Source of the DNA: Candidatus Ancillula glyptotermitis
GTDB taxonomy: Bacteria > Actinomycetota > Actinomycetes > Actinomycetales > Bifidobacteriaceae
NCBI GenBank assembly: GCA_031268675.1
Contig: JAIRWY010000055.1
Span: forward strand, 10,155-74,154
DNA: 64,000 nt
Direction of reading: 5' to 3'
The notes under the pieces: model-generated
What the model was told of the DNA's origin: nothing
Databases searched by the model: none
What the model saw: the letters and a program-made list of their open reading frames with translations, nothing else
Part shown: positions 1 to 64,000 of the stretch, in pieces
How positions within the stretch are numbered: the stretch's first letter is position 1
How the letters are laid out: each line of letters opens with the position of its first letter
Program-made: the position numbers and the translations under genes

Positions 1-3000
1 AAACTAATAACATCGGGCTTTTTGGGTCGCTAATTTCTAGCACGGATGCTGCAAATAAGGTTTGTGGAAGTGCAAAAAATGCAGTTTGTATGCCAACTAT
101 TCAAAATCTTACTGTTGAAGTGGGACCAAGTGGAATTACTGGAAGATCTAATGTGGGAGCGGTTGCTGGATATGCGGCAGGTGCTGCGTTCAACAACGTT
201 AAAGTAGACAGAGTGTCCAGCATGAACCATAATCCTATAGTAAAATCTGCTGCTTCTGATGTCAATGTGGGCACTGGCGGTTTAGTTGGGTTTATAAGTT
301 GTTTAAATCCAGCGGTTGCTCAAAAGGATGTTGCAACTTCAATAGTTGGTACGCCTGCTGAATGTATAGCAACAGTTTCTAAAATCGATAAGTCATCAGT
401 TGAAAGAGTTGATATAAAAGGCGCGCGAGCATCAAAGTGGCAGAAGTTTCGCGTTTATGGAGGAACTGGAGGTTTAGCAGGTCTTGCAGTTTCCACGCGC
501 ATCAATTTTTCACATGCAACAGGAGCGGTTGATGGGGATGCTGTGGGCAGCGTGGCAACTTCTCGAGGTGCTGGAGTAAGTGGCGGACTTGTTGGTACAA
601 TTCTTAACGGTTTGCAGAATCCAGCTGATACTTATACTAATGGTTACGATGCTTACGTGAAATCATGTTATAATGGTGCTACTTCTGCATATTCTACAAT
701 TTCAAAGTCATACTCAGAAGGTACTGTAACGGGTTCAGTTGCAGGCGGTCTTGTTGGATGGGCAGGAAATGGTAATTCAGATAAATGTAGTACCGAAAGT
801 GGTAGCAGTGGATCTACTTTAGGAACAGCTTATGGTCCTATTAATGTGTATTCTAAGCTAGGAACTCCGCAAATTATTGAAAGCTATTCAGCAAATACAG
901 CAGTTGTAACAGGAAAAGGAAGTTATCGCGAACTTGGAGGAATAGTTGGAATTTTGACTGCTGGCGGTTCAGTTCTTGACTCTTACACTGCAAGTCCTCT
1001 AACAGCAAATTCTACCACAAATTCAGGTAATTATATCGTTGGCGGTTTAGTTGGAGTTGCACTAGGTGGTAATGGTGTTTTTTCAAGCTATGCATCAGGA
1101 AAAATTTCTAATACAAATACTGCTAGAATTGGTGCAGTAATTGGGGATGACTGGCCAGATACTTCTTCAAAATATGCAGGCTGGAATGTTATTCAGGAAT
1201 CTAGTGGCAAAGATAACGCACCTTATACTATTGGCTGTACAACTGGTTGTACAATAAATATCTTCGCATTCACTAATTTTGTGGATGCTTCATCAGCTAC
1301 TGGAACTGGAACCACCCTCCCAATTCTTTCTCAAAATCACACGATATTTGATAATACTTCTGATAGATCTAAAATTACTCGTACGGTGAGTAGTGTAATC
1401 GCAAAATATTATGATGCAGCAACTTTGACATCTACTACTGCCGCTTTGCTCAAGACTAGAGCACCATATGTTCAGCAAGGCTGGGATTTCGCTCTAGCTC
1501 CAGGTAAATTGACATCCAAGTGGCGTTTAGAAGGAGATGGTGCATTTTACCCTAAACTTGCATGGCAGGTGGAGGATGATCCACTCAATGTCACAGATGC
1601 TGAAATCACCAGGATAATCAGGTGTAATGTGCCAGAAGTGAGTAACTACATTGGTCAATACGGAGTTCCTTGGAGCGCTTCTAAAATGAACGAGCTGGGC
1701 GTTCCAGACATTGAACGAGACTATACATGTACGAATCCATCTGAATCTGAAATTGCCAACACCTTGAAATTTGCAAATGAAACCACGCTTAAACAAGCCA
1801 CTTTAGCTGCTCAGCGTTTACGGTTGTTCTCTGGAGGAGGCACTGGACAAGCAAGTAATCCATTTAAGATCCGCACTGCTAAAGACCTAGATAATCTGCA
1901 CCGCTTTTTTGGATCAACAGTAGCTTCAACTACTGCGAATACTGCGAAGACATGCGGAATTGCTGGAGGAGAACAGTGCGATACTGGGCAACGAGTTTTT
2001 GCTGATACAATTTCTACAGATAATCAACAAGCATACTGGGAGTTGGCAAATGACATCGACCTGAAAGACTATTTAGCAAAAACACCGTCTGTGGAAGGTG
2101 CTAATCTTGGTTATCAAAAGTATGGAGATGCTGGTTGGGCTCCTCTAGGGCGCGCGGCATATGGTACAGGAACTTATCGGATTTCTGGTGCTACTGATCC
2201 TGCAGGTGGTACAACAATGTACTCGTCTAATAGTAATGGTCACTGGCTTCAAGGAACAACTGAGGTCGAGCAACAATTTAGGCTATATGCATTTTTTGGA
2301 AATATTGATTTTGCAAGTCATTCAATTAAGAACTTCTGGCTTCAAAGACCAAGTGAGTTATATACTGGATTCTTTGGAACTCAGGGCTTTGGGGTTATTA
2401 GGAATGGATCAATAACTGTTGCAAATCCTGGAGTTCGAGGTTATAGATATACAGGAGTAGTTTCGGGTTATGTTATTGCTGGTAGTGATTTGAACAACTT
2501 CTCAGTTGGTGTGGCCAATCAAGAAGATAGAGAGAATACCCAAGTGACTGTTTGTGCAAAAAATGCAACATCATGCGCTGCAGTTTATGTCGGAGGTGCT
2601 TTAGGATTAACTAAGGGCGGTTTGCAAAATGTGCATACTGATATAGATGTTAATATTGGGCGGTTTGGAACTGCCGATACTGATACAGCATTAAAAGGTG
2701 CAACTGGAGTGGTTACATATGTTGGAGGAGTTGTTGGTACCTTAGACTGTACAAATAGTTGTGAAATGCGTAGAGTTTGGTCAACAGGAAATGTTTATGC
2801 TCCGCGCTCAAATATAGTTGGTGGAGTATTTGGAGAAATGTATGGCGCGAGCAAGTTGAACCAAGGTTATTCCACAGGTAATGTTACTGGTAGAAATTCA
2901 GTTGGCGGTGTAGGCGGTCGAGTTGCACAATATGCACGTGAACTCTCTGAAGTATTTTCTACTGGAGACATCAAGGATTATTATATGGATACAGGCGGTA

Positions 3001-6000
3001 TATTAGGAAGAGTTGATGGTTTATCATCAGGTGATGATACTTTTACAATAAGAGATGCTTTTACTGGAGGAAGTGTTTGGCATGTTGGAACTGGTCGAGA
3101 TATTGGTGGTACACTAGGTTATGGGGCTGCTAATGTAATGATTAGAAATGTCTATTTAACTGGTGTTGTGTGCAGTGCAACTTCTGGACAAAGACAAGGT
3201 ACAATTTCAGGTTATTTAGCAGGTGGTACAAAAACTTTATCGCAAAACTTCTTTAACTTAACAGTTACTAATACATATAAAGCTTCTGGACAGTGCAATT
3301 ATCCTGCAACCGCGCCAGTTGGAGAATTGACTTATGGTTATTATGAGGCACATGGAGCAAATGAAGAGGACATGTATGTTCAATCTACTTTCCAAAATGC
3401 GGGCTGGGATTTTGAGTGGAAGAACCGTAATGCATCTGAAGATAAATGGGTTCCACCAGTTTGGTATTTGCCAGAGACTGCTGGTGAGGATGGAATTATG
3501 CCACAGCTTTATTGGGTTGCAGGAGATAATAAGCCAAATCCTGTAAACGATTTTGATGGAGGCTCTGGAACTAACGCAGATCCGTACCGAATTGCTACTG
3601 CCCAGCAACTTGATAATCTTCACAAGTATTTAGGAGAAGATTGCTGGAAACCAGATGGTACTGGCACATGTAGTACTCCAGGTAACGATACTGATACTGC
3701 AGGTACATCTTTTAGTTCTTTGCATTTTAAGCTAGTTGCTGATATAGACTTGACTGATTATTTGAAGCCTGGTGGTTTAGGCTGGTCTAAATATGGCAAG
3801 AGCGGCTGGGAACCAATTGGCGGTTCACGCGTTGCCAATGAGAAAACTGGTGCATCAGATAGTTCTGCATTTAACAGCCATTTAGACGGTTCATGCGCTG
3901 CAGAAGAAACTGCTGAAACTTGCCAAGCGCTAGACTTGTATGGTAGACGTTCGCATACAATCAAGGGCCTTTGGATGCAGAAGACTTACAACATGGTGGG
4001 ACTTTTTGGAAGAACTAAGTATTCAAACATCAACGATATTGTGCTTGATATAGATGGAGATCCTGTAAGAGACAGAAACAATGTGAATGTGAACTTAGAC
4101 CGTAATTCAAAAACATACGGCGGTATTACAGGAGGTGCTGAAGTAGGCTCGCTTATCGGGTGCACTGATGCGACCACCATCAAGAACGTCTTTATAACAT
4201 CAAGCTCAACTCAGCCTGGAAATGTCATCATCTTAGGACAACCAACCTATAGAGAAGGCGGGGGAGAACAAGGTGCTTATGGTGGTGGAATTTCTGGTAT
4301 TTTCTACAATTCCGTGATTACGGATTCTGAGTTGTATTTGCCAGGATCATATATAGGAGCAGTTCATAAAGTTGCTCAACCGCAGAGAGCACAAATATCC
4401 TTGTCCTCAAATGAAGTAACTCAGGTTATCGGAGGTGGTTTTGGACATATTACAAATCAGTCAGCTGCTCGAAGAGTTGGCATCACATTTGGTTATGTTG
4501 CAGGTGATAATATTATTGGTGGTTTCGCTGGAAAGCTTGGTGGAAGTTCTAGTACTAGTGGTGCCTCTTCTCAATCTGTTATAAGTCAATCATTTGTAAA
4601 AGGAAAAGCAGTTATTGCAGGACTTACTACTGCTACTCGTTCTTGGAATTCAGCATTAATGGGTGGAGGAGTCGGTATTATGGAAGGGCACTCAACGCTT
4701 GCAGATTCATATGTCCAAGTGCAATATGTTCTAAATGGCTCTGGTAGTTACAGTTGGACAGGCGGAATTGCAGGATATTTGGGCAATACTAATACTACTG
4801 CTACTACCATTAAAATTCAACAAGTTTATTATTCTCCTGGTGTTACTGGCACTGGTAATGGAGGCGTTTTTGCTCAAAAAAATGTTCTTTGGCCAGATCA
4901 AGTTACAGATTCTACGACCACGGGTTATGGGGTATTTGGGTCAGCTCCTGCTAATATAACTAGTGACAGTAACTCAAATACTGGTGTATTTGCAATATAC
5001 GATTCTGGTGCTGGATCTTTCAGGGGTAGTTCAGCTGTAACTCCAGCTTCTGCTTATCACTACAAACTTAGTTATTCAAGTGGTATTACCATGATGTCTA
5101 GGTGGAGATTTCAGGTTTTTGGTTTCCGCTTCATGAAGACTGATGAGGGAGATGCTCCTTGGACAATTGACAACGGCAAGGATCGCCCTAGACTTGCTTG
5201 GGAGAAGGAGTATGGAACTGGAACTCGGCATGCAGAAGATGGACTTAACCTGTACTCGCAAGTTCCAAGACCTGGATCTGTGTGGAATCTGCAGTGTTCA
5301 AACCCTGGATATGATCAGGTAAAGGGCAAGATCGTCACAGATGATAGTCATGGTGGCACAACTGAGACAGAGGTTGGAACTGATACTATACCATGTTTAA
5401 TAACAACTCCTGAGCAGTTTGATGATCTGCACAATAGAGTGGGCTGGGAATATGCATTCACACACTTCAAACTTGGAGCGGACATTGATCTGGGCTATAA
5501 CGTGGCTGGTGGTTTGATTGGAACTGCTGCTAATCCTGGACCAGAAAGAAACAATGGTTATGGTTGGGATCCAATTGGTAAAGGAAAAGATGCTGGTTTT
5601 GATGGCAGTTATAGTACATACAACGTTGATATCAATCCAAATCCAGTTGTTAGTAGTAACAATAAAATTCTTACATGGGCTCCAGCAATTTCAGGCAAGT
5701 CTAGAGAGTCATGGTATAGCGATTACAGTATGTGGCAAGCGCACTTAGATGGAGATAATCATAAAATAACTAACCTCTATATTAACGGTCATGGATACAG
5801 TGCACAAGGAAATGGCTTATTTGGTTATGCGGCTGTTGGAGCCTCAATTAAGAATCTAGTACTTGGTGTTAATTCAGTTACTGGAACTGCTTATGTTGGT
5901 GCAGTTGTTGGTCATGGTGATTATACTCTTTATGATGCAAAATCTTGGGGTGGAGTACCAGCAAAGTATGGAAGTGGAAGTGGAAGTCAAGATCCTTGGA

Positions 6001-9000
6001 AGACTAGATGGTCTGCAATTACTACCTCAAATCTTGGCAAGGTTCAACTAGACCATCTGAGGGTGTATGGTGCAAATGGTGAGTATTTGAAAGACTTCAA
6101 CCCCAATATCACTGCGGATCTTGCAAAAGTTGCTCAAATCAAGTGCACTGGTGCTAGATGCGGTGGAGTTTCTGGTTTTTATGGTGGAGATTTATCATAT
6201 TCATCTGCTCAACTAAATCTGAATAGTACTAATAGTTATGTTGGTGGTTTGACTGGATATACATCTGGTGCAGTTTTAGACCACACATATGCAGAAGGCA
6301 AGATAGTAGGTGGTGCTTATACTGGAGGACTAGTTGGAGAATTGCGCGCGAACGGAAAAGTTGTTGATTCATATTCAAATGCAATAATTGAAGGACCGTC
6401 AGAAGTTGGCGGTATTGCTGGCACTATTTATGGCGGTGGAAGTATATACAGTTCATATTCAGTGGGAAGTGTAACCACAAATGCAACTTCTTATTCTGGT
6501 GTAGCGGCAGCTGCTGGCGGTCTAGTTGGTAGAATATCTTCAGCGAATGCAACTGATGATACCAATATAGCACAGGTTTTCAATATTTATGAATGTTTTT
6601 CTTCCGCAACTGTTCAGGGAAACACAGATACTGTTAGAGCACTAGCAGCGGCTAGTCGCTTTTCTATAGCACTTGGAGGCTTGGTAGGAGATTATAATAG
6701 TTATAGTTGGAGTTCAACTATAAGATCTGATGCTTCTAACTATTATATAACAAACAGTTATTTTACTGGATCTGTCCGAGGAATTGGATCAAGTTTCTAC
6801 ACAAACAACTACAAAATAAGTCAGGACTCTGGCGGTTTAGTTGGTAGAGTACATGTTAATGGTGGTTCAGGCAGTCAAGGTGTGTATTTGCGGTCAAATT
6901 ATGTAAATGCATCTGCTATTAGTTCGGTTGATGGTATTGTTGGATTTTTAGTTGGGTATACTTCAAGTAGTAGTTCTCCTTCTGGTACTTCTACTACCAC
7001 TAGTTTTACATCCAGAACTGGAACTGTTATGACCCAAAATCAAGTTTATGGTACTGCCACTATGGGTTATACTGATGGCTGTTCTGCGGTAACTGGATTT
7101 AGTTCTAGTGGTGTCAGCTGTGGTAGCTTTTATGGTGCTTATTTGACAAATGAAGGCGATGCTAACCAAAATACGATTATGCATAAAGAGCAACTTGGTC
7201 AAATGTCAACTTACCAAAATTATTATTCTGGTGCTGACTATTCAAAGAATTTTGCATTTGATGCCAAGAATCCATATCGTCGCCCAGTTTGGCATGCATT
7301 TGAAGATGAACATGCATCTCCAATTTTAGACTGGCAGGTTAGAAAAGGTGCAATTGGACCTGAAGCATATAATTCTGATGGTTTGACGAAGGCCACGAAT
7401 GAAGATGGTGAATGGAAAACTGATGGTAAGACATATCTACCGAGTATTTTCAAAGGTTGTGAAGTTGGAACAGATGGTTTGACGGATAACAACACTAATA
7501 ACAAAAATAAGATTGCAGGAGATGGTATTTATGACACGATTGGTCAGTATTGTGATGGATCTAGTACGAAACCATTTACTATTCGCACTGAGCAAGAACT
7601 TTGGCAAATGCGTCTGTTTAATCGTCATGTTAGTGGAGTGGAAAGAAATTATGGCGATGAAATTGTAAATCTAGATCGTGCAACCGTTCCTAATCTTGAT
7701 AATGCAGATGATAATAAGAATTTGAATTTTGAGCTTGCTAACGATATAACTTTAACTGAGAACAACGTCTTGAATACAATAACAGGTAAATATGGGACGA
7801 TGTCTGGCACTCAAGCCACAGGGCGTGGTTGGGATCCAATTGCTGTTAATGGAACACGCCAAAGTACTGTTTTTGTTGCTGGCTCTTTTTGGAATTCAAC
7901 TTTTAATGGAAATGGACACACAATTGATGGTCTTTGGCAAAATAGAGCAGATTCTGTCACAAAATCGTCGTATCTAATGGACACTTTAGAGCATGCCGCT
8001 GTTTCTACTCATAAGAGCGTCAACTGTGGTGGATTGTTTTGCTATTCAGTGAATTCTACAATTAAGAATTTGAGTGTAATCACTGCAGATAAGGGAGTTC
8101 AAGCATCTCAGGATATTGGTATTTTAGTTGGTGATATGATTTCTGGAAAGTTAGAAAATATTTCTGTGCGCGGCAATGCTTATGCAAAATGTTTAGCAAG
8201 TTCTTCGAATGCTATGTGTTCAGTAGCCAATAATTACACTTGGGATGGTAAAAACCTCGGTGGTGTTGTAGGTTTTGTTGGTATAGTATCTACTTTGACC
8301 ACACCCCCAGTTATAGACAATGTGCATTTAGTTGCAGGCTCTAAAGTACAGACTGCTAATGGTGATGTGCTTGCTCAGGCGGCTAACTATGTAGTTGGTG
8401 GTTTAGTTGGAAAAATGCAATCTGGTACAATCACTAATTCATCAGCAAATGCAACAATTATAGGGCCTTGGGTTACTGGTGGTCTGCTTGGAGAAACTGC
8501 TCCTGATACTCTTGCTTCTAATAGTACTAATCCATATGCAAATTATCAACCTGTCACTATTTCTAACTCGTATTCTGCAGGACTAGTTCGCACCGCTTAT
8601 GATGGCAGTGGAGGTACTACTAATGGTACATTTCTTGGCGGTTTTCTTGGGCATACTAGTAATAGTACGCAAGTTACTGTGGAGAACTCATATTCAACTG
8701 CAGATGTTATAAACGCCACATCTTCTGGAGGCACTAATAAAATTGCTGGTTCTTTTGGTGGAGCATTGCAAGCTACCACGCCACATATCTTGAAGAATAT
8801 TTATGCAACAGGAAGTGTTAAATTTGAAGGCACTAAGACAGTAACTGGTGGTAATAACGAGTTCTTTGGAAATATGCTTGCGGGCACTAGTCGCTTTGGT
8901 AACAGCACATGTTCAGGAATTGTTTCTAGTGTTCATTCTACAAGTAATGTTAGTAGTAATAATAATTGTACAGAAAATGCTGCTGATCAGTATAAGTATA

Positions 9001-57000: not shown

Positions 57001-60000
57001 TTGACTGCCAAGCATCTGGATTAACTGCTGGAGATCACACCATCAACATTACTGGAACTGGTCTGTATGGTAACACTGGATCGCTGACGCTAACTGGCAC
57101 AATTTTCAAGCCTAATGCACCAACGGAGGTCCATGTTGAAACAGGTACTGAGACAAAGCAGGAGTTTGAAGACAGTAACTATTCATATGTTTCTGTTAGT
57201 TGGACTCCACCTGCAATTAACGATGCTGTTAAACCATTTAGTTACAAGATTTATGCAACTCAAGTAGGTGCTGGTCATAATCCAGTTGAATTTTGCCAAG
57301 TTGTAGGAAATGAAACAAACCAGAATCCAAGTACATGCGCTGTTTCTAGCCCAATTGCTGCTGGTCTTGCATTTAATACGGACTACACTTTCACAGTTGT
57401 CGCATTTGACAAGTATGGAACTGCTTCTGATATTTCTGCACCAAGTTCTATATTCCACACGATGTTTGAAGAGCCAGAAACAGCACCAATTGTGCCAGCT
57501 GATCAGACACTTGTTGTTAAGCAAACTGCGCTTGGACAGGCAAATGTGGTTGGTAATCCATTTACATCTGTTAACAACTTGGCTATTGACTACAAGTTAG
57601 CATACTGCAAGGAAGTTGCTGAAGGTGTAGGTTGTGATGATTCAATTACAAGAGTCAACGCATCTTTAGACGTTGATTCAGCTAGCGGAAACTTCGGCAA
57701 GGTTGTTGGTGATGTTACTTCTGGTTTATCCGATTCTACGCATTATTTGTTCTGGTTTGAAGCAACTTCTGTAAATGGATTAACCAATAGCGGTATGAAT
57801 AAGGCTGAGTTTATAACCGCAGGTCCAATTTTACTTAAGTGGTTATCTGCTCCTGCTAAGAACGGCGCTGGCGAGTTGGTGTTCCAGTTTGACCAAGATA
57901 ACTACATCGGTTGGGATGCACAGCAGGTTACTTATGCTGTAACTGTAGATGGAGCAACACTTGGAACTTGCATGCCAAATGGAGAAGGTTCAACTGCTAG
58001 AACTTGCACCAAGCCAAATATTGCTGTTGGATCCCATACTATTGAAATAACAGCAACAGGTAAAGCTTCAAATACAGGTAAATTAACATATAGTGCAGTT
58101 ATCACAGAACTTCCTGCACCGCTTGCCCCTATAATTACTGGTGAAGAAAAAGATGCAACTGGCAGCGGAATTACTCTGCATATGACATTTACTGTTCAAG
58201 ATGAGTCTAGTTTTGCAAATGTTGGACACAAGATTGATATATATGATGTAGATGGATCGACAGTTACAATTAGTGGACAGCAGCCACAAGTTAGTTGTAC
58301 AGGCTTTACATGTACTGCTTCAGTTCAAGGTCTAATACAGAACACTGTATACAAGTTCAAGGCAGTTACTACATCTGATAGTCCAGATCTTGCATCTAGC
58401 TTCTCAGAAACTTACCACACAGCATATACTCCAACTGCTTTAACACCTGCGCCAACTGTAAGACAAGGCTATGATATCACTGGTCAAGAAAAGACTTCAG
58501 TTGTTATTGAAGGAATACATTCTTCGTATGCAGGTACTGAGCCTAGTGAGTTTAAGCTAGAAAAGTGCACAACTTGGGTTGTTGAAGGTTCAACTTGCTC
58601 CGCTTGGGAGGCAGTTCCACCAGAAAATGTTGCATATTCTCAAAATGCTGGAATTGGCAAGTTCGTTGTAACTGGATTAACTCAAGATGCGCTTAATGTT
58701 CTAAGAGTGGATGAAACATCAATTGTAGGTACACATGAAAACGCTAGTTTACCAATTGCACTTGTGATGGGTCCTGTTAAACCTGCTAATGCTCCTGTTG
58801 TTACTCAAACAGGAAATGCATCTGCTGGATTAGTAACTGTTGTATCCGAACCGTTTACGCATACTCCAGGTGCTGTTATAACTTCATATACTTTGAAATA
58901 CTGCGAGCTTGATGAGAGCAACAACTGCATTGGTATATTTGAACGACCTGCGAACATAATAACGGACTCCAATGAAGGAACAGTTGGCAATGTTAAGGGA
59001 TCTGTTAGCGGACTAGATCCAAACAAGTATTACAAGTTCTGGATAACAGCGACATCAGCAATTGGAACTACAGCTGGAGATGCAACAGTATTAGCAACTG
59101 CAGGTCCACTTACTATCACTTCTACTACTCCTGTTCAAACTAACGCTGGTGAGTTGAAATTCTCCTATAAACTAGATAGTAACTACATCGGAAATGACAA
59201 AGCAGCTGTGAGATTTAGTGCACCTACTGTTGATTCTGGTTCAACTTCTTGCATACTTGAAGGAGGATCAGATGCGGTTACTTATCCACATGTTGTTGGA
59301 GCAGATAATACGCAAATTAACTGCACAGTTTCAGGATTACAAGCAGGTTCACATACAATTCATTTAAGTGCAACTGGTAGTTATTCAAATACTGGTTCGT
59401 TAGATATAACAGGAACTATTTTCAAGCCTGCTGCACCAACTAATGTAACGGTAGATGGAGCAACTGAAATTAGTGTAGACAATGGCGGAGCATATCATGT
59501 ATCTGTTTTAGTTGCATGGACTCCAATTTCAACCACAGGCGTGCCAGCAAGTGCATTACCGATTACATACAAGGTGTACGCTTATGATCAGGCAAATCCA
59601 ACTGTTAAGATTGAATACTGTACAGTAAATACCAACAGCAATTGTACACCTGATACAACAAGTGCAGGTTTGGACTTCAACAAGACATATACATTCACAG
59701 TTGAGGCAGTAGATGCATTTGGTACAACTTCAGGTGAATCTGCTCCAAGTTCTTCATTCCACACGCGGTTTGAGACACTTGAGCAAGCACCAGGAATTCC
59801 AACTAACCCTGCACTAACTGTTCGTCAAACTGAACTTGGAAAAGCAGATATTACTGGTGAACCGTTCACATCTACTAATAATCTACCTATTAGTTATCAA
59901 TTAGCATACTGTAAGAAAGATGCAAGCACTAAGAACTGCAATGCGGGAGACACATTATATACAGTTCCAGCCATCTTTGATACAGAATCTGGTAGTGGTA

Positions 60001-63000
60001 CTGAAAACAAGGTGGTTGCTAATATTACTGCGAACTTGGCTAATTCAAGTGATTATGTCTTCTGGTTAAGAGCATCTTCAGTTGGTGGTTCAAATGAGAC
60101 TGCTTTAGAGCAAAGGACTGAATTTACAACTGCTGGTCCTATCCCAATCAAGTGGTCATCTGCTCCTGCTAAGAATGCCGCTGGTAATTTAACATTCACC
60201 TTCAGTATTGACACATACAAGGGCTGGGACAAAGACGATGTTGCATATGAGGTTACTGTGGATGGACAACCTCTAACATGCGAGGCAAGTGGAAATGGTC
60301 AAACTTGTACAAAACTAGCGATTACGGCAACAACGCATACTATTCATGTTCATGCAACAGGTAAAGTTTCAAATACAGGTGATCTGGACTTCTCAGCAGT
60401 CATTACAGAACTTCCTTCTCCTCTTGCGCCTGAAATAACTTCTGAAAGTGTAAACGGAACTGATGCTAATAAGGTAGATTTAACAGCTACATTTACATAT
60501 CCAGATGAAAGTGGTATTTCACCTACTCCTGAACATAGCGTAAAAGTATATACAGCAACTGGCGAAGAAGTTAGTGGACTTACGACTAACACCAATTGTA
60601 CATCAGAACATGTATGTACTGCTTCAGTTCAAGGACTAGACCAGAACACTGTATACAAGTTCAAGGCACTATCAAAATCAGGCAGTAGTGAACTTCTATC
60701 TAGTTTCTCAGGAACTTACCACACAGCATATACTCCAACTGTTTTAACACCTGCGCCAACTGTAAGACAAGGCTATGATATTGCAGGTCAAGAAAAGACT
60801 TCAGTTGTTATTGAAGGAGTTAGCTCTTCGTATGCAGGTACTGAGCCAACAACATTTGGACTTGAAAGGTGTAGTGCATTTGATGGTGATACATGCAGTA
60901 CATGGACTAGTCTAGTTGTAAATACAGACTACACATTTGATAAGGACAGCATGAAGTTCATCGTAACTGGTTTGTCGCAGGGTTCAGTTGAGGCATTTAG
61001 AGTAACCGAGACTTCAATTACTGGAAATGCACAAACGCAAACTCCTAAGATTGAACTAACTACAGGACCAAATGCTCCTGAAGGAAAACCAATAGTTACT
61101 CAAACAGGAGTTCAAAGTGCAAGAGTTGTATCTGAGCCGTTCGTATCCACAGGTACTCCAATAACTTCTTATGTGCTGAAATACTGCAAAGTAGATATTA
61201 GTGGTGACAACTGCAATGATGTTGAAACAACTTCAGCTGTTTTGGTTACAGATAGTAAGGATACCAACTTCGGTAAAGTAAAAGCAAATGTTCAATTAAA
61301 CAGCAACCAGCATTACAAGTTCTGGTTTGAAGCTACTTCTTTAATAGGTACAACCTTAGGTCAGGACAGTGATGTATTTACTATGGCTGGAAACTTTGCA
61401 ATAACAAATGGTACTATTGCTCAGACTGCTAGTGATAAGTTAGCGTTTAGCTTCAAGGTTGCAGATGGTTATAATGGAAGTGATGCAAATAATATTGTAC
61501 TTGCTCTTCCTGTTGTACAAGGTGGAATTGTCAAGTGTGCTGTTGATACAGAAGAAGGCATGACAACTGATGCAACTAGAGACATTACAGCTGGAAGTAC
61601 AATCTACTGCGTAGCAGAAGGTCTAGCAGTTGGAACTCACCAAGTAAATATCAGTGCATCTGGCAAGTTTGACAATACAGCAACTACAACTTTAACAGGC
61701 GTAATTGCAAAACCAAGTATTCCTACAAATGTGCATGTAAATACTACAACTGAGACAAAGCAGGACTTTGAAGGCAGTAACTATTCATATGTTGAAATTA
61801 ACTTTGATCCAATAAGTTATCCTGTAGGAACTGTTAACATTACTTATGAAGTTTATGCAAAACAAACAGGTCAAAATCCAGTTAAGGTTTGTCAGGTTAG
61901 TGCTTTGGCAAATCAGAACACTTCTTCTTGTACAATGACTAATTCAGCTGCTGGTCTTAATTTCAACACAGATTATACCTTCCAAGCTGAAGCAGTTGAT
62001 GCATTTGGAACAAGTTCTGGTATTTCTGCTCCGTCTACTATATTCCACACGATGTTTGAAGAGCTTGAAACAGTACCAGGACTTCCAAGCAACCAGGCTT
62101 TAACAGTTTCTCAAACTGCGCTTGGAGCTGCACAAGTAGTTGGTGAACAATTCACATCAGTTAATAATCTGCCAATTAGCTACAAGTTAGCATACTGCAG
62201 AAAAGCAGAAGGCTCATCTGGTTGTCAAGATTCTGTAACTAGAGTCATATCTAGTGTAGATACAGATGCAAATAGTGGAAACTACGGCAAAGTTGTTGGT
62301 AATATTCCTTCTGGTCTGCTAAATTCAACAGATTATTTGTTCTGGTTTGAAGCAACTAGCCAAAATGATTTAACTAACAACACTATGAATAAGACTGAGT
62401 TCACGACTGCAGGACCAATTTTGCTCAAGTGGTCGCAAGTTCCGAGCAAGAATGCTGCTGGTGCGCTAGTATTTGGATTTGAACCTAATAACTACAAGGG
62501 CTGGGATAGTGCGCAGATTGCATATGAGGTGGAAGTTGATGGACAACCTCTAACATGCGAGGCAAGTGGAAATGGTCAAACTTGTACAAAACCAGGCATT
62601 GCAATTGGAGCACATACTATTCATGTTCATGCAACAGGTAAAGCTTCAAATACAGGTGAACTTAACTACAACGCCAATATTGCAGAACTTCCTTCTCCTC
62701 TTGCGCCTGTAATAACTGGTGAAAGCGTAAACCAAACTGATAACAACAAGGTAGATTTAACAGCAAGTTTCACAATTCAGGACGAAACTAGTTTAACTGA
62801 ACCTGTTCATAAGATCAAGGTGTATAATAATGATGGATCAGTTGCTAAAACTTCAGACGAAATAGAAATAGAGGTAAATGCTACTTGCTTAGGAGCAACT
62901 GCTGAATCTGCTTGTACAGCTACAATTGAAGGACTAGGCCAAAATACAGTATACAAACTAAAAGCTGTAACAACTCAAGGAGCTGATTCTTTATCTTCAC

Positions 63001-64000
63001 CGTTTAGTGAACCTTATCATACAGCATACTTGCCAAATGTTCCAACAGGTGCAAATATTCATCAAGGTGTAGAAGTTTCTGGTCATGAAAAGACTTCAGT
63101 TGTTATTGACAATATAACATTTAACTATAGCGGAACACACCTAAGCGAGAAGTACGTTGAAGAATGTACAACATTTGGTGGAGCAACTTGCATAACTTGG
63201 ACAAAGGTTACAAGTAATATAGAATATGCGCAAGATCAAACAACTAGTAAAGGCAAGTTCACAATTACAGGACTTGAAGAGAATTCTAAACATGAATATA
63301 GAGTTGTAGAAAAGTCTATAGCAGGAGAAACTCCAAGTGAAGGTATGACAATTGAGTTAGCGGCTGGACCGACAAGCCCAGAAAGTGCACCAATAGTTAC
63401 TCAAACAGGAGTTGGAAATGCAAGAGTTGTATCTGAGCCGTTTGCATCTGCATTCTCTCCGATTTTGTACCAAGTGAAGTATTGCCAAGTCCAAAACGAA
63501 CAAGGAGATGGATGTGTAGATATTGAGTCAACAACTGCATCAACAGTAACAGATTCACATGATGAAAATTACGGCAAGGTCAAGGCAAATATTACAGGAC
63601 TAGAAGCAAATAAGTACTACAAGTTCTGGATAACTGCAACAAATGTAGTAGGTTCAACTGATGGTTTGACAACTATAAGTAAGACTCTTAGGGTCGTAAA
63701 GCCAGTTTATGCACCAACTGCTCCAGTTATTTTGCCAAGTGAAGAATCGCTAGTCCAAGTTGAGTCTGATGTTAAATCACAGCTAGTGGTAAGATTTACT
63801 ATACAAGATGAAACTGACAACGATGAGTTAGAGCATCTAGTTCATGTTTATAATGCTAGTGATGAAGAAATTTCCTTGCTTGAGACTGCTGCAACGTGTA
63901 TAGGACGTAATGCTGGTTCTTTCTGCACAGCAACAATTTCTGGACTAAATCTTGGGGAAGTTTACAAGTTCAAGGCTGAAGTTAAGGTTGCTGATTCAGA
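1..64000 (+). CDS. Internal fragment of a single giant ORF with both ends outside the window. It encodes a repetitive extracellular fibre/adhesin-like protein: GLUG beta-helix modules, then an Ig-like junction, then an Fn3/Ig-like array
   Basis: Frame +3 (codons start at positions divisible by 3) gives 21,332 sense codons from nt 3 to 63,998. Codon-by-codon hand translation at more than 25 places gives stop-free, domain-like sequence in the same phase. These include nt 3-1,920, 28,141-29,640, 32,581-36,300, 45,001, 50,041, 60,121-60,420 and 63,661-64,000. The first in-frame ATG is at nt 90, so any later in-frame stop would have produced a listed + ORF. None of the 39 listed + ORFs is in frame 3 (38 are frame 1, one is frame 2, maximum 118 aa). 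The longest - strand ORF is 190 aa. Recognisable protein motifs (GLUG, Fn3, glycine-rich domain) occur throughout. Confidence 0.96.
3..1568 (+). repeat. GLUG beta-helix module M0 (head truncated by the window start)
   Basis: The window opens at the end of a head ('NIGLFGS', nt 9-29). GLUG rungs follow, e.g. 'NVGTGGLVG' at nt 264-290, plus 'VSGGLVG', 'VAGGLVG' and 'IVGGLVG'. The C-cap is 'GWDF' at nt 1,479-1,490 and 'YPKLAW' at nt 1,548-1,565. Confidence 0.7.
1833..3515 (+). repeat. GLUG beta-helix module M1 (head, rungs, C-cap)
   Basis: Head 'GGGTGQASNPFKIRTAKDLDNLHRFFG' starts at nt 1,833. The C-cap is 'GWDFEW' at nt 3,402-3,419 and 'IMPQLYW' ending at nt 3,515. Confidence 0.7.
3555..5201 (+). 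repeat. GLUG beta-helix module M2
   Basis: Head 'DGGSGTNADPYRIATAQQLDNLHKYLG' starts at nt 3,555. 'GWEPIG' is at nt 3,804-3,821. The C-cap 'DAPWTIDNGKDRPRLAW' ends at nt 5,201. Confidence 0.7.
5376..7334 (+). repeat. GLUG beta-helix module M3
   Basis: Head 'GTDTIPCLITTPEQFDDLH' starts at nt 5,376. 'WDPIG' is at nt 5,565-5,579. The C-cap 'RRPVWHAFEDEHASPILDW' ends at nt 7,334. Confidence 0.7.
7554..9188 (+). repeat. GLUG beta-helix module M4
   Basis: Head 'DGSSTKPFTIRTEQELWQMRLF' starts at nt 7,554. 'WDPIA' is at nt 7,830-7,844. The C-cap 'KIPIFYW' ends at nt 9,188. Confidence 0.7.
9375..11492 (+). repeat. GLUG beta-helix module M5
   Basis: Head 'TGTAEDPCKITSAEDL' starts at nt 9,375. 'WDPIG' is at nt 9,531-9,545. 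Rungs include 'GGFVG' near nt 10,560 and 10,640. The C-cap 'NWDIGPGETHIWNKQDGKLPVLSW' ends at nt 11,492. Confidence 0.7.
11679..13343 (+). repeat. GLUG beta-helix module M6
   Basis: Head 'GNDEHPCVISTPKQLQSINKF' starts at nt 11,679. 'EWLPIG' is at nt 11,967-11,984. The C-cap 'TWDFDPQAGKSARLFW' ends at nt 13,343. Confidence 0.7.
13494..15980 (+). repeat. GLUG beta-helix module M7
   Basis: Head 'GWSSANPCLIRNVKEFNQLRLF' starts at nt 13,494. 'WDPIG' is at nt 13,680-13,694. The C-cap 'KPKWFIKDGQMNHPHLWW' ends at nt 15,980. Confidence 0.7.
16185..18509 (+). repeat. GLUG beta-helix module M8
   Basis: Head 'GWTEDNPCLVSTQKELDEVRYF' starts at nt 16,185. 'GWLPIG' is at nt 16,422-16,439. Rungs are mostly GGI[VAI]G, e.g. 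'VVGGIVG' near nt 17,170. The C-cap 'RPTWVMPAEGQGYPRLAW' ends at nt 18,509. Confidence 0.7.
18747..20708 (+). repeat. GLUG beta-helix module M9 (degenerate head)
   Basis: Head 'TGTGGNGTSQNPFEVANVVDLDHMRYF' starts at nt 18,747. I found no clear W-x-P-I-G equivalent in this head. The C-cap 'SPWQKNDGFNQNLPYLYW' ends at nt 20,708. Confidence 0.6.
20859..23273 (+). repeat. GLUG beta-helix module M10
   Basis: Head 'GESWKNPCVVETIADLNVMKLY' starts at nt 20,859. GGF[VA]G rungs include 'IGGFVG' near nt 21,687 and 'VGGFAG' near nt 21,770. The C-cap 'NWDTSYSL...KMPTWYIDPTFASIP' is weaker than in other modules and ends near nt 23,273. Confidence 0.55.
23382..26264 (+). repeat. GLUG beta-helix module M11 (longest, about 960 aa)
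   Basis: Head 'GNGNAGYEIRDLQELSNLRYF' starts at nt 23,382. 'GWSPIG' is at nt 23,580-23,597. The C-cap 'NFGMPMLGW' ends at nt 26,264. Confidence 0.65.
26394..28016 (+). repeat. GLUG beta-helix module M12
   Basis: Head 'GSAQNPCLVGDPYELDNVRYF' starts at nt 26,394. 'GWHPIG' is at nt 26,631-26,648. The C-cap 'HPNWYADLTRHAYPMLGW' ends at nt 28,016. Confidence 0.7.
28584..29530 (+). other. Glycine-rich domain of the ALK/LTK type (Pfam Gly_rich-like), nested in module M13
   Basis: Verified translation reads 'YSQNFSYKNAAQTFTAPESGDYSLEVWGAQGG...LGGNGGYAKGKIHLTAGQNLYVYTGQN...GKKGGGAGGGASDIRV...LYSRIIVAGGGGGHASD...GGVGGGTSGGAGG...GRGGSQTGGGQFG...YFGGGGGGGWYGGGGGASYG...TGGGGGSGYV...GHAGNGAARIIQL'. The order of the blocks (F-T-A-P-x-x-G-x-Y-x-L-E-V-W-G-A-x-G-G start, GGGA-S-D-I-R, R-I-I-V-A-G-G-G-G-G, poly-Gly-W/Y-Y-G-G-G, G-N-G-x-x-x-I end) matches what I remember of this family. 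Confidence 0.7.
29709..29729 (+). repeat. In-frame (TCT)7 microsatellite encoding Ser7
   Basis: Read directly as tct x7, translating '...SQNT-SSSSSSS-DAIKVGVGGFAG'. Confidence 0.9.
30753..32660 (+). repeat. GLUG beta-helix module M14 (last one)
   Basis: Head 'GAGTQTDPCIVVNAKQLDSIHDW' starts at nt 30,753. 'GWSPVG' is at nt 31,032-31,049. Rungs are GG[VI]IG, e.g. 'RVGGVIG' near nt 31,285. The terminal cap 'GISMPYLRSF' ends near nt 32,660. Confidence 0.65.
31869..31886 (+). repeat. In-frame (TAC)5-TAT microsatellite encoding Tyr6
   Basis: Read directly as tac x5 followed by tat, translating 'GDS-YYYYYY-RFTSYRLY'. Confidence 0.9.
32847..33194 (+). other. MBG-like adhesin stalk domain (tentative)
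   Basis: 'PTFTISGTGAKQARENIGSGSHFDIIKGSGTDPNGVLAYEENGPNEQIVNAGTYSIAGGSL...NAYQSYVLANKNPYYQASFDFTKFYEVKQIPAKLEIK'. The pattern '...AGTY-x-I ... N-Y ... x-I-x-P-A-x-L-x-I' resembles MBG domains of large bacterial surface proteins. This is recognition by eye only. Confidence 0.4.
34278..34635 (+). other. YDG-like domain (tentative)
   Basis: 'DRKELTVTGAIADRQYNGKTNADWAGGRYPSLQGLVAGTDQVEINQPVPTFVDPATGDGKHVYL...GKDAHNYMVTQPSAFSASI'. It follows the L-T-V-T-G-x-x-A-x-[DK]-[RK]-x-Y-[DN]-G-x-T-x-A and G-L-V-x-G-D-x-V layout typical of YDG domains. Confidence 0.45.
35835..36248 (+). other. First Fn3 domain of the array (fully hand-translated exemplar)
   Basis: 'PDEPKDLQVMQLLNGSNEGEVSAVITWKGAQAQELANKSNTILKYNLQMKTVEAEQWTDISALIPPCTSSCDAQTDFRLEIYNTEEYGSGSQITLNSGTDYVFRVRANNEIQGTGYPSAVNDGVGDGPWATTSFKTFS'. 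Confidence 0.8.
35835..53915 (+). repeat. Array of about 45 consecutive fibronectin type III (Fn3) domains, mutually divergent at the DNA level
   Basis: The Fn3 signature P-x-x-P...W...Y-x-[VIL]-x-Y...W...L-x-P/G-x-x-Y-x-[FV]-x-[VI]-x-A recurs every ~100-150 aa. Verified F-strand examples are 'DYVFRVRANN' (nt 36,132-36,161), 'AYRFRVQAVN' (~39,426), 'KYRFWVASYS' (~48,150), 'EYRFRVLAAP' (~51,291) and 'TYKFRIKATS' (~53,835). The domain count is by eye and was not computed. Confidence 0.85.
53916..55235 (+). repeat. Divergent proto-unit of the super-repeat (Ig-like domain followed by about 3 Fn3-like domains)
   Basis: It starts 'AGTFDLDW...'. The Ig-like head contains 'FSYKLADAY'. The 17-mer ctataaactagcagatg at nt 53,984-54,000 recurs exactly 1,320 nt later at nt 55,304-55,320. 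Confidence 0.55.
55236..56777 (+). repeat. Second divergent proto-unit (Ig-like domain followed by Fn3-like domains)
   Basis: It starts 'ASDFSIAWVDGPVQTGPGTIKYSYKLADGY', which is the same head motif as the unit at nt 53,916. Confidence 0.55.
56778..59099 (+). repeat. Seven-domain super-repeat, copy 1 (Ig-A, Fn3-a, Fn3-b, Ig-B, Fn3-c, Fn3-d, Fn3-e; about 774 aa)
   Basis: It starts 'AGNFNLEQVGNVSQ'. By-eye domain borders are at about nt 57,111, 57,471, 57,819, 58,111, 58,431 and 58,771. It shares near-identical DNA tracts with copies 2 and 3 (see findings). Confidence 0.75.
59100..61385 (+). repeat. Seven-domain super-repeat, copy 2
   Basis: It starts 'AGPLTITSTTPVQTNAGELKFSYKL'. Ig-B was verified at nt 60,130-60,410: 'AGPIPIKWSSAPAKNAAGNLTFTFSIDTYKGWDKDDVAYEVTVDGQPLTCEASGNGQTCTK...HTIHVHATGK'. 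Confidence 0.75.
61386..63690 (+). repeat. Seven-domain super-repeat, copy 3
   Basis: It starts 'AGNFAITNGTIAQTASDK'. It contains a 55-nt tract (62,538-62,592) identical to nt 60,261-60,315 in copy 2. Confidence 0.75.
63691..64000 (+). other. Partial Fn3 domain (Fn3-c type) running off the 3' end of the window
   Basis: 'VVKPVYAPTAPVILPSEESLVQVESDVKSQLVVRFTIQDETDNDELEHLVHVYNASDEEISLLETAATCIGRNAGSFCTATISGLNLGEVYKFKAEVKVADS'. The frame is still open at nt 64,000. Confidence 0.65.

What the first reader, a model, noticed from the sequence alone, without database searches (positions are those of the whole stretch)
1..64000. The whole 64-kb window is one stop-free reading frame: the interior of a giant gene (more than 21,332 codons)
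Frame +3 stays open for all 21,332 codons. At about 40% GC, stops should occur roughly every 15-20 codons, and the other five frames behave that way (longest ORF 190 aa). The first in-frame ATG is at nt 90, so any later in-frame stop would have produced a listed + ORF. None of the 39 listed + ORFs is in frame 3. All of my spot translations from nt 3 to nt 64,000 are in the same phase and look like folded domains. No start or signal peptide and no stop or anchor lies in the window, so the real gene is longer than 64 kb. From memory, prokaryotic genes of this size are very rare. Examples are the ~36,800-aa protein of Chlorobium chlorochromatii and the giant Omnitrophota genes in a 2023 preprint. 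I do not know of one built from GLUG modules plus an Fn3 array.
Basis: partly seen in the sequence, partly recalled or inferred. Interest (0 to 1): 0.95.

Follow-up and report, generated by a model that had tools for sequence, protein, structure and literature searches.

The report
Interior of a giant surface-protein gene
The whole 64-kb window is a stop-free stretch from inside one real, enormous gene (over 21,332 codons, over 2.26 MDa) that most likely encodes a very long cell-surface fibre; genes this large are rare but already documented, so the size is notable, not unprecedented.

Summary
Frame +3 has 0 stops in 21,332 codons, while the other five frames have 895-2,326 stops and no listed ORF longer than 190 aa. 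The chance probability is about 1e-633.

The frame is genuine coding sequence from one genome. GC1/GC2/GC3 is 0.49/0.47/0.27 in every 6-kb block, and codon-usage correlation between blocks is 0.84-0.96. There are no near-identical DNA repeats, so a repeat-driven misassembly is unlikely.

Layout:
- aa 1-10,850: one partial and 14 complete GLUG-type beta-helix modules of 574-1,018 aa, homologous to the N-terminal beta-helix of IgA1 protease. One carries an ALK/LTK-type glycine-rich insert.
- aa 10,851-11,400: an orphan linker.
- aa 11,400-11,950: YDG repeats.
- aa 11,968-21,327: a titin-like chain of at least 47 Fn3-like domains, ending in three ancient ~765-aa super-repeats.

The window holds no transmembrane segment, HExxH motif, start, stop or anchor.

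Best reading: a giant, acidic, extracellular adhesin-like fibre. No close relative was found, and the organism is unknown.

Proteins up to 147,155 aa and thousands of 10,000 aa or more have been reported, and smaller proteins combining GLUG and Fn3 exist. I file it as a new member of a known kind, with moderate interest.

The parts
3..63998 (+). Single open reading frame of 21,332 codons, with no start and no stop in the window; it encodes 2.26 MDa with pI 4.8
   Evidence: 0 stops in frame +3. Codon-position GC is 0.49/0.47/0.27 in all blocks. Codon-usage (RSCU) correlation between blocks is 0.84-0.96.
3..1844 (+). C-terminal part of a GLUG beta-helix module cut by the window edge (aa 1-614). 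It has GGLVG-type rungs at aa 92-347 and the end motif WDF...YPKLAW at aa 494-521.
   Evidence: Motif map, end-motif search, translation.
1845..3566 (+). GLUG beta-helix module 1 (aa 615-1,188)
   Evidence: Cap HMM hit, E 8e-51; alignments A1 and A2.
3567..5375 (+). GLUG module 2 (aa 1,189-1,791)
5376..7556 (+). GLUG module 3 (aa 1,792-2,518)
7557..9377 (+). GLUG module 4 (aa 2,519-3,125)
   Evidence: a sub-threshold Pfam Glug hit lies in this region.
9378..11678 (+). GLUG module 5 (aa 3,126-3,892)
11679..13499 (+). GLUG module 6 (aa 3,893-4,499)
13500..16187 (+). GLUG module 7 (aa 4,500-5,395), a long module with a sub-threshold AbfB-like stretch at about aa 5,213-5,298
   Evidence: Pfam Glug scores 34.3 bits (cut-off 20.5) and AbfB 21.8 bits (cut-off 22.8).
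16188..18764 (+). GLUG module 8 (aa 5,396-6,254)
18765..20864 (+). GLUG module 9 (aa 6,255-6,954)
20865..23339 (+). GLUG module 10 (aa 6,955-7,779); only the first part of the cap is detected
   Evidence: weak Pfam Glug hits.
23340..26393 (+). GLUG module 11 (aa 7,780-8,797), the longest at 1,018 aa
26394..28181 (+). GLUG module 12 (aa 8,798-9,393), the module that was modelled
   Evidence: AlphaFold2 model: pLDDT 58, pTM 0.66. Top Foldseek PDB matches are 3n6z and the IgA1 proteases 6xja/6xjb, probability 1.0.
28182..30758 (+). GLUG module 13 (aa 9,394-10,252), which carries the glycine-rich insert
28635..29519 (+). ALK/LTK-type glycine-rich domain (aa 9,545-9,839) inserted just after the cap of module 13
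   Evidence: Pfam PF12810: E 2.3e-36, 126.5 bits, cut-off 24.5. Sequence. Short GGT/GGC tandem repeats.
30759..32552 (+). GLUG module 14 (aa 10,253-10,850), the last one
   Evidence: Seed of the cap HMM; alignments A1 and A2.
32553..34202 (+). Orphan linker region (aa 10,851-11,400) with no detectable domain or homologue
   Evidence: No Pfam or NCBIfam hit. No best matched stretch among 1.84 billion representatives starts before query residue 568, which is about aa 11,368.
34203..35852 (+). Run of YDG-type repeat domains (aa about 11,400-11,950)
   Evidence: Pfam YDG at aa 11,427-11,491: 26.1 bits, cut-off 25. Hits in the representative library are 25-29% identical over up to 540 aa, and one is named 'YDG domain-containing protein'.
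35904..63983 (+). Array of Fn3-like beta-sandwich domains (aa 11,968-21,327): 47 detected by my own HMM, and probably about 70-90 in all
   Evidence: Pfam fn3 is above its cut-off in every 1,000-aa chunk from aa 12,001 to 20,000 and in the final 1,332-aa chunk (up to 95.8 bits). Own HMM: 47 domains. The undetected gaps also read like beta-sandwiches.
57003..63902 (+). Three copies of a ~765-aa super-repeat (aa 19,001-21,300), each with about 7 beta-sandwich domains and conserved cysteine pairs
   Evidence: Protein self-comparison: 46-56% identity. DNA: 67-70% identity. Alignment A3. dS about 1.1, dN/dS about 0.4. AlphaFold2 model: pLDDT 73.7, all-beta. Foldseek matches titin, MyBP-C, leptin receptor and PTPRD Fn3 chains.

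Best explanation
The window lies inside one genuine protein-coding gene longer than 64 kb. It encodes part of a giant, acidic, non-membrane protein that is most likely extracellular: an adhesin-like surface fibre. Shown here: the N-terminal half of the window encodes 15 tandem right-handed beta-helix modules of the GLUG / Peptidase_M26_N kind, and one of them carries an ALK/LTK-type glycine-rich insert. The C-terminal half encodes a short YDG-repeat run followed by a titin-like beads-on-a-string chain of Fn3-like domains, ending in ancient ~765-aa super-repeats. Inferred: the Fn3 chain acts as a long, semi-flexible stalk, probably a few hundred nanometres long at about 3.5-4 nm per Fn3 domain. 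This stalk would hold the array of divergent GLUG beta-helices away from the cell, where they bind ligands on surfaces or other cells. The order (GLUG distal, Fn3 proximal) suggests anchoring or sorting through the unseen C-terminus, as in T9SS-sorted, LPXTG-anchored or S-layer-type GLUG proteins. The secretion signal, the anchor and any catalytic domain would lie outside the window.
For: Real gene: 0 stops in 21,332 codons against about 1,408 expected. Codon-position bias is strong and uniform, and purine occupies codon position 1 in 64-71% of codons in every block. Codon usage correlates at 0.84-0.96 across eight blocks.

Not a repeat artefact: only three DNA self-matches at 67-70% identity and three short ones of 31-69 nt; only trivial tandem repeats; super-repeat copies have dS about 1.1 and dN/dS about 0.4.

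GLUG beta-helix modules: the cap HMM finds 14 module starts. The A2 profile hits 659 proteins, best E 1.9e-91, and nearly all of the 120 listed carry PF07581, often with PF05342. The same profile matches IgA1 protease 6xjb at E 1e-15 and 3n6z at E 2e-10. Top Foldseek matches are 3n6z and 6xja.

Fn3 chain: Pfam fn3 up to 95.8 bits, 47 domains by own HMM, and a model at pLDDT 73.7 that matches titin, leptin receptor and PTPRD Fn3 chains.

Extracellular fibre: no TM-like segment in 21,332 aa and pI 4.8. Closely spaced cysteine pairs are invariant in the three super-repeat copies. Homologous GLUG proteins carry T9SS tails, SLH, dockerin, TPS and Listeria-Bacteroides repeat domains. Locus L001 shows the order GLUG, then CUB, Fn3 and TIG, then a Por_Secre_tail domain. 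The literature treats GLUG proteins as putative adhesins (PMC9723798) and giant repeat proteins as adhesion factors (bioRxiv 10.1101/2023.11.21.568195, section 12).
Against: Both ends of the gene are missing, so secretion, anchoring and total length are unproven. There are no expression or read-level data. The function of GLUG beta-helices is not established experimentally beyond their structural role in IgA1 proteases. The module model is only of moderate confidence (pLDDT 58), and the Foldseek E-value is weak (5e-3). About 550 aa (aa 10,851-11,400) and the long inserts in modules 7, 8, 10 and 11 are uncharacterised and could hide an activity. The organism is unknown.
Confidence: 0.72

Rival explanations
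1. Assembly artefact: the contig is a chimera or an artificial concatenation of repeat units that happens to stay in frame.
For: The protein is modular and repetitive at domain level. No read-level data can be checked here. The source contig was not found in any collection.
Against: There are no near-identical DNA repeats for an assembler to collapse or expand. The best self-matches are 67-70% identical over about 1 kb, and three short ones span 31-69 nt. Repeat copies differ at saturated synonymous sites. Codon usage and codon-position composition are uniform across all blocks. Any random join would keep the frame only one time in three, and domain boundaries run continuously through the window.
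Confidence: 0.04
2. The gene encodes a giant enzyme, for example a ZmpA/IgA1-protease-like metalloprotease or a glycan-degrading polyprotein. The GLUG modules and Fn3 domains would be accessory parts, and the catalytic domain(s) would lie outside the window or in unrecognised inserts.
For: The GLUG / Peptidase_M26_N beta-helix is the N-terminal domain of streptococcal IgA1 proteases. There is a weak NCBIfam ZmpA hit and a sub-threshold AbfB-like carbohydrate-binding stretch. Omnitrophota giants are implicated in cell-wall degradation (bioRxiv 10.1101/2023.11.21.568195).
Against: There is no HExxH motif anywhere in 21,332 aa. No catalytic Pfam or NCBIfam family passes its threshold. Most database GLUG proteins show no catalytic domain either.
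Confidence: 0.15
3. It is a member of the Omnitrophota-type giant proteins: membrane-anchored, multi-enzyme, or dockerin/TSP3 'Archaeovorin' types used in predation or episymbiosis.
For: The size class and moderate GC fit. That phylum holds most known very long genes (bioRxiv 10.64898/2026.06.07.730766). Tandem-repeat scaffolds are one of its three architectural classes.
Against: The window has no dockerin, TSP3, SecA, enzyme cluster or TM helix. GLUG does not appear in West-Roberts et al. 2023 (0 occurrences) or in the architecture section of Nielsen & Lui 2026 read. No sequence relative was found in the GTDB representative genomes.
Confidence: 0.1
4. It is a decaying or non-expressed relic (pseudogene), or a non-coding region that is open by chance.
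For: No expression data are available.
Against: P(no stops by chance) is about 1e-633. Coding periodicity is strong throughout. dN/dS is below 1 between ancient repeat copies. Domain signatures are intact.
Confidence: 0.01

Closest known systems
GLUG motif-containing surface proteins (Pfam PF07581 with PF05342 Peptidase_M26_N), including Bacteroides ovatus BACOVA_03286 (PDB 3n6z) and the N-terminal beta-helix of Streptococcus pneumoniae IgA1 protease (PDB 6xja/6xjb)
   Same: They share the module: the cap 'G..PY/C.I....L......F.L..DIDL...W.PIG..F.G.FDG.G..I..L', GG(L/I/V)xG rungs, and a 'W...YP.L.W' end. Profile E is 1.9e-91 to database members and 1e-15 to 6xjb, and these structures are the top fold matches. 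Database members also carry the module in tandem, with cap-HMM hits at 3-4 distinct sites in the members inspected, and some combine it with Fn3.
   Different: This gene has 15 modules in a row, each 574-1,018 aa, against about 300-400 aa per module in the database proteins. Identity to any database member is at most 38% over short stretches. There is no M26 catalytic HExxH domain in the window. The protein is more than 12 times longer than any listed relative, although that search tool listed nothing above 1,780 aa.
Giant episymbiosis proteins of Chlorobium chlorochromatii (36,805 aa, and a protein of about 25,000 aa with fibronectin and haemagglutinin-like repeats)
   Same: The size class is similar. 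Both are built from repeats, including fibronectin-type ones, and both are proposed to attach one cell to another (bioRxiv 10.1101/2023.11.21.568195, section 12).
   Different: No sequence comparison could be made here. [quoted passage not shown]
Omnitrophota giant proteins (West-Roberts et al. 2023; Nielsen & Lui 2026)
   Same: These are single genes of tens of kilobases. Their repeats have diverged at DNA level while the domain architecture persists, and most are sequence-unique singletons.
   Different: Those proteins are mostly membrane-anchored with TM helices, and are multi-enzyme or carry dockerin/TSP3, WD, HEAT, NHL or TPR repeats. This window has none of these.
Titin-like and bacterial fibrillar adhesins built from Ig/Fn3 chains (titin, SiiE, Ebh, MpIBP/LapA-type RTX adhesins, halomucin)
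   Same: All have a long beads-on-a-string chain of beta-sandwich domains organised into super-repeats. The model of the super-repeat matches titin FnIII and myosin-filament chains. Halomucin homologues include a CDS containing the GLUG motif (PMC4330952).
   Different: The window has no RTX nonapeptide block (a single GGxGxD, inside the glycine-rich insert) and no LPxTG motif. The domains are Fn3-like, not BIg or FIVAR-GA. The window alone is 2-4 times longer than those bacterial adhesins (Ebh is almost 10,000 aa per PMC11573180; the other sizes are from my own knowledge).

Membership tests
GLUG / Peptidase_M26_N beta-helix domain family (PF07581, PF05342) | Pfam Glug motif model matched above its gathering score | tested here: met
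   34.3 bits against a cut-off of 20.5 in aa about 4,900-5,395. Other 1,000-aa chunks give 16.7-19.2 bits, just below the cut-off.
GLUG / Peptidase_M26_N beta-helix domain family (PF07581, PF05342) | Profile-level homology of the whole module to annotated family members and to solved structures | tested here: met
   The A2 profile gives 659 hits, best E 1.9e-91, and nearly all of the 120 listed carry PF07581, often with PF05342. PDB 6xjb E 1e-15 and 3n6z E 2e-10.
GLUG / Peptidase_M26_N beta-helix domain family (PF07581, PF05342) | Right-handed beta-helix fold | tested here: inconclusive
   The model of module 12 has pLDDT 58 and pTM 0.66 with short repeated strands. Top Foldseek matches are the GLUG beta-helices 3n6z and 6xja at probability 1.0, but E is only 5e-3 and TM (target-normalised) is 0.56.
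M26 IgA1-specific metallopeptidases (ZmpA/B/C, IgA1 protease) | Zinc-binding HExxH catalytic domain | tested here: not met
   There is no HExxH motif in 21,332 aa. NCBIfam ZmpA scores 21 bits against a cut-off of 3,000. The parts of the gene outside the window could not be tested.
Fibronectin type III domain (PF00041) | Pfam fn3 above its gathering score, and a beta-sandwich fold | tested here: met
   39-96 bits against a cut-off of 25 in every chunk from aa 12,001 to 21,332. The model is all-beta at pLDDT 73.7 and matches Fn3 chains at E down to 1e-13.
ALK/LTK glycine-rich domain (PF12810) | Pfam model above its gathering score over nearly its full length | tested here: met
   126.5 bits against a cut-off of 24.5, covering profile positions 6-241 of 243, at aa 9,545-9,839.
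'Large' (10,000 aa or more) and 'giant' (30,000 aa or more) prokaryotic proteins, as defined by West-Roberts et al. 2023 | Length of one uninterrupted ORF | tested here: met
   More than 21,332 aa meets the 10,000-aa criterion. The 30,000-aa criterion cannot be tested because both ends lie outside the window.
Omnitrophota Archaeovorin-type or multi-enzyme giant proteins | Dockerin (PF00404) plus TSP3 (PF18884), or SecA or enzyme clusters, with TM helices | tested here: not met
   None of these Pfam families appears. The maximum 19-residue hydropathy is 1.59, so there is no TM-like segment. This applies to the window only.
T1SS RTX giant adhesins (LapA/SiiE/MpIBP type) | C-terminal RTX nonapeptide repeats (GGxGxD) and BIg-type extender domains | tested here: not met
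   There is a single GGxGxD, at aa 9,687 inside the glycine-rich insert, and no BIg Pfam hits. The true C-terminus is not in the window.
T9SS, LPXTG, SLH or TPS-sorted surface proteins | Terminal sorting domain (PF18962, LPxTG, PF00395 or PF05860) | not testable with these tools
   Both termini lie outside the window and the contig could not be extended. The window has no LPxTG motif. Relatives carry each of these signals.

The most novel reading that the evidence does not exclude
This is part of a 2.3-MDa-or-larger fibre from a lineage with no sequenced close relative. It would be the largest GLUG-family protein known, and a distinct architectural class of giant prokaryotic protein: a long array of oversized, highly diverged GLUG beta-helices, one carrying an ALK/LTK-type polyglycine domain, mounted on a titin-scale Fn3 stalk. 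Such a fibre could tether the cell to a partner or prey cell, as in episymbionts. If the gene extends much further, it could be among the longest genes known outside Omnitrophota.
Probability: 0.3. Interest if true: 0.7.

Novelty: new member of a known kind. Interest (0 to 1): 0.5.

Why it matters
Genes longer than 60 kb test the limits of transcription, translation, secretion and folding. They are usually broken up by assemblers and gene callers, so each intact example is useful. This one shows that the widespread but functionally uncharacterised GLUG beta-helix can be multiplied into a fibre of megadalton size. It also provides 15 anciently diverged paralogous modules in one polypeptide, which form a built-in alignment for working out what the module binds. 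If the organism proves to be an episymbiont or predator, the protein is a candidate attachment organelle. Giant repeat-built surface proteins and giant genes in general are already documented, so the value is incremental rather than a new concept.

Tried and rejected
- Source contig: an exact 50-mer from the window start was absent from genome contigs, viral contigs and metagenome contigs. Megablast of nt 30,001-55,000 against plasmids and phages gave no match. The tool description says some genome stretches are masked, so absence of the source itself is not evidence of novelty.
- Relatives: aa 1-1,000 gave one weak hit in the 5.8-billion-protein database. The super-repeat alignment A3 gave none there, none in genome contigs and none in metagenome contigs. 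aa 10,801-12,000 against 1.84 billion representatives gave only YDG-repeat matches at 25-29% BLASTP identity.
- Cluster names gave almost no taxonomy.
- NCBIfam found nothing above its cut-offs.
- Whole-protein BLASTP against itself returned only the identity hit, so tiling was needed. Single-seed iterative HMMs failed for whole GLUG clusters, the inter-module parts, the C-terminal cap and a single Fn3 domain, because the copies are too diverged. A multi-seed Fn3 HMM worked.
- Rfam and tRNA scans found nothing in the window, and the tandem-repeat scan only four short arrays. Promoter-like sites were at chance in two of three 20-kb segments (68 against 46 +/- 7 in nt 20,001-40,000), terminator-like sites were at or below chance, and none was strong.
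- A paper search for 'GLUG' plus 'giant' returned only irrelevant hits.
- Stop-codon reassignment was rejected as an explanation because none of the three stop codons occurs in frame.
- A haloarchaeal origin, suggested by the best GLUG hit lying in an archaeal-looking contig and by the halomucin link, was not adopted. At about 24% identity, and with only moderate acidity (D+E 9-12%), the link is too weak.
Full report
**1. Observation**

Frame +3 of the window (codons starting at nt 3, 6...) contains no TAA, TAG or TGA in 21,332 codons. The other five frames carry 895-2,326 stops, and their longest open stretch is 212 codons. The longest ORF listed outside frame +3 is 190 aa, on the minus strand. 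The first in-frame ATG is at nt 90. From base composition about 1,408 stops would be expected, so the probability of none is about 1e-633. Because all three stop codons are absent, an alternative genetic code is not needed to explain the open frame.

**2. Is it a real gene from a single genome?**

- GC at the three codon positions is 0.49, 0.47 and 0.27. Purine occupies position 1 in 64-71% of codons. Both values hold in each of eleven 6-kb blocks.
- Relative synonymous codon usage correlates at 0.84-0.96 between eight consecutive blocks. This argues against a chimera of different genomes.
- DNA self-comparison finds only three long matches, at nt 57,147-62,787, with 67-70% identity, plus three short ones of 31-69 nt. 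Tandem Repeats Finder reports only four tiny arrays. There is nothing an assembler could have collapsed or inflated.
- The three C-terminal super-repeat copies are about 50% identical in protein. Their synonymous divergence is saturated (dS about 1.1) and dN/dS is about 0.4. They are old duplications kept under protein-level constraint.
- The window holds no Rfam family, tRNA or convincing internal terminator. Promoter-like sites are at chance in two of the three 20-kb segments scanned (68 found against 46 +/- 7 expected in nt 20,001-40,000). Terminator-like sites are at or below chance, and none is strong.

**3. Anatomy: the N-terminal half (aa 1-10,850)**

The translated product (2.26 MDa, pI 4.8) has two very different halves. 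Amino acids 1 to about 10,850 are glycine-rich, at 11-15% Gly.

- GG(L/I/V)xG motifs occur only in this half, in clusters.
- An HMM grown from one segment finds a ~177-aa cap domain at 14 sites, so one module spans 574-1,018 aa.
- Aligning the modules gives the consensus 'GTxxxPCxIxT..LD...FKL..DIDL...GWxPIG...FxGxFDGxGxTIxGLWxNR...GLFG', followed by GGxxG rungs and an end motif 'WDF...PxWxI...PxLxW'.
- This profile hits 659 database proteins, best E 1.9e-91. Nearly all of the 120 listed carry Pfam Glug (PF07581), and many also carry Peptidase_M26_N (PF05342).
- The same profile hits the solved S. pneumoniae IgA1 protease at E 1e-15 and Bacteroides ovatus 3n6z at E 2e-10.
- An AlphaFold2 model of module 12, using the 14 paralogues as its alignment, is of moderate quality (pLDDT 58, pTM 0.66). 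Its best PDB matches are those same GLUG beta-helices.
- Pfam's own 28-residue Glug model passes its threshold in one chunk and falls just short in others.

So the first half is one partial plus 14 complete tandem GLUG-type beta-helix modules. Module 13 carries a full ALK/LTK-type glycine-rich domain (PF12810, 126.5 bits) inserted just after its cap. Module 7 has a sub-threshold AbfB-like stretch.

**4. Anatomy: the C-terminal half (aa 10,851-21,332)**

- Amino acids 10,851-11,400 match nothing: no Pfam or NCBIfam family, and no best matched stretch among 1.84 billion representative proteins starts in this region.
- Amino acids about 11,400-11,950 are a run of YDG-type repeats (Pfam YDG 26.1 bits). 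The nearest public relatives are only 25-29% identical.
- From aa 11,968 to the end, Pfam fn3 is significant in every chunk, up to 95.8 bits.
- A multi-seed HMM detects 47 Fn3-like domains. The stretches between them also read like beta-sandwiches.
- The last 2,300 aa are three copies of a ~765-aa super-repeat.
- The AlphaFold2 model of that super-repeat (pLDDT 73.7) is a string of about seven beta-sandwiches. It matches titin and myosin-filament chains, the leptin receptor ectodomain, titin FnIII I109-I111 and PTPRD FN4-6.
- Closely spaced cysteine pairs are invariant between the copies. That would fit disulfide-stapled extracellular domains.

Across all 21,332 aa there is no TM-like segment, no HExxH, no LPxTG and no RTX block.

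**5. Most likely function (inference)**

Every recognisable part belongs to families typical of secreted or surface proteins. Relatives of the GLUG module carry T9SS tails, SLH domains, dockerins, TPS domains and Listeria-Bacteroides repeats. One metagenomic locus shows the same order on a smaller scale: GLUG, then CUB, Fn3 and TIG, then a T9SS C-terminal domain (L001). The literature calls the GLUG motif 'of unknown function' with a possible role in adhesion (PMC9723798). It also links a GLUG-containing CDS to halomucin homologues (PMC4330952). Giant repeat proteins are generally interpreted as adhesion factors (bioRxiv 10.1101/2023.11.21.568195, section 12).

I therefore read the product as a giant adhesin-like fibre. 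The Fn3 chain would be a stalk, at about 3.5-4 nm per domain by established structural knowledge, so a few hundred nanometres long. It would present an array of highly diverged beta-helix heads, probably anchored through the unseen C-terminus.

The domain composition and the absence of membrane or catalytic signatures in the window are shown. Secretion, anchoring, orientation and ligand binding are inferred. A catalytic domain outside the window remains possible, as in ZmpA-like proteases. I give that rival about 0.15.

**6. Relatives and origin**

The source could not be found. The exact 50-mer searches failed. There was no plasmid or phage match. The super-repeat has no relative in 185,579 species-representative genomes, in JGI metagenomes, or in the 5.8-billion-protein database. 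Amino acids 1-1,000 gave one marginal hit.

Three caveats apply:

- The genome collection contains masked stretches.
- The word-indexed protein search listed nothing longer than 1,780 aa, so it may be blind to giant proteins.
- The Fn3 and GLUG copies are too diverged for pattern-based scans.

The organism is unknown. GC3 of 0.27 suggests a genome with low to moderate GC. NCC and GGG codons are almost absent.

**7. Comparison with what is known**

By size the ORF is 'large' (10,000 aa or more) in the terms of West-Roberts et al. 2023. Whether it reaches their 'giant' threshold (30,000 aa) cannot be told. Such genes have been reported in many phyla. Omnitrophota reach 147,155 aa, and 5,761 proteins of 10,000 aa or more were clustered there, mostly as sequence-unique singletons with dissolved nucleotide repeats (bioRxiv 10.64898/2026.06.07.730766). 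Chlorobium chlorochromatii has proteins of 36,805 aa and about 25,000 aa, the latter with fibronectin-type repeats.

The present architecture differs from the Omnitrophota classes: it has no TM helices, enzymes, dockerin or TSP3. It is a scaled-up version of ordinary GLUG plus Fn3 surface proteins. In the members inspected, those have cap hits at 3-4 distinct sites, about 300-400 aa apart.

It passes the membership tests for the GLUG, Fn3 and ALK_LTK_GRD domain families. Within the window it fails those for M26 peptidases, RTX adhesins and Omnitrophota-type giants.

**8. Verdict**

I classify it as a new member of a known kind: giant repeat-built surface proteins. Its features are extreme size, an unusually long array of oversized GLUG modules, and no close sequence relatives. 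Interest is moderate (0.5). It is rare and useful, but no longer very surprising. Its key unknowns (full length, termini, organism, expression) need data that lie outside the window.

Noticed in passing
window nt 28,635-29,519 (aa 9,545-9,839): A full-length ALK/LTK-type glycine-rich domain (PF12810, 126.5 bits) is inserted immediately after the cap of GLUG module 13. Short GGT/GGC tandem repeats (nt 29,032-29,322) lie inside it. Why a polyglycine-type domain sits inside a beta-helix module is unexplained.
   Followed up: partly
window nt about 15,639-15,896 (aa about 5,213-5,298): A sub-threshold match to the AbfB carbohydrate-binding domain (PF05270, 21.8 bits against a cut-off of 22.8) lies in the unusually long module 7. 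It may be a glycan-binding insert.
   Followed up: no
window nt 32,553-34,202 (aa 10,851-11,400): The ~550-aa stretch between the last GLUG module and the YDG repeats has no Pfam or NCBIfam hit, and no best matched stretch among 1.84 billion representative proteins starts in it.
   Followed up: partly
window nt 57,003-63,902 (alignment A3): Each beta-sandwich of the C-terminal super-repeat keeps a closely spaced invariant cysteine pair (for example C98/C112, C202/C211, C323/C335, C432/C437, C522/C532, C634/C642). Cysteine content rises to 1.5-1.8% in this part. These are probably disulfide loops.
   Followed up: no
whole window, frame +3: Codon usage almost excludes NCC and GGG codons: CCC is 1% of Pro, GCC 4% of Ala, TCC 4% of Ser and GGG 4% of Gly. 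AAG is 53% of Lys even though GC3 is only 0.27. This is an unusual signature that might help identify the host lineage.
   Followed up: no
whole window (composition profile): GC skew drops from about 0.18 (nt 1-32,000) to about 0.05 (nt 32,000-64,000). The change coincides with the fall in glycine content (GGN codons) from 11-15% to 7-8% at the GLUG-to-Fn3 transition, so it reflects amino-acid composition and not a replication feature or a join.
   Followed up: yes
L001 nt 1-16,582 (ENA ERZ25068881 contig_82): A run of same-strand ORFs encodes GLUG, then CUB, then GLUG/Fn3/TIG, then TIG, then Por_Secre_tail. It looks like one large T9SS-sorted surface-protein gene broken by frameshifts, and it has the same N-to-C order of domain types as the window.
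   Followed up: partly
L002 nt 10,001-15,112 (NCBI GCA_001563815.1, LFFM01001177.1): The best-scoring GLUG relative (P0002, 1,703 aa) sits in a contig with archaeal-type neighbours (TFIIB, HTH_10, BAT). The module family therefore spans bacteria and archaea.
   Followed up: no
tool behaviour: All 120 listed hits of the word-indexed protein search are 1,780 aa or shorter, and many fill their whole ~5-kb contig. The index seems to exclude longer proteins, so giant relatives would be invisible to it.
   Followed up: no
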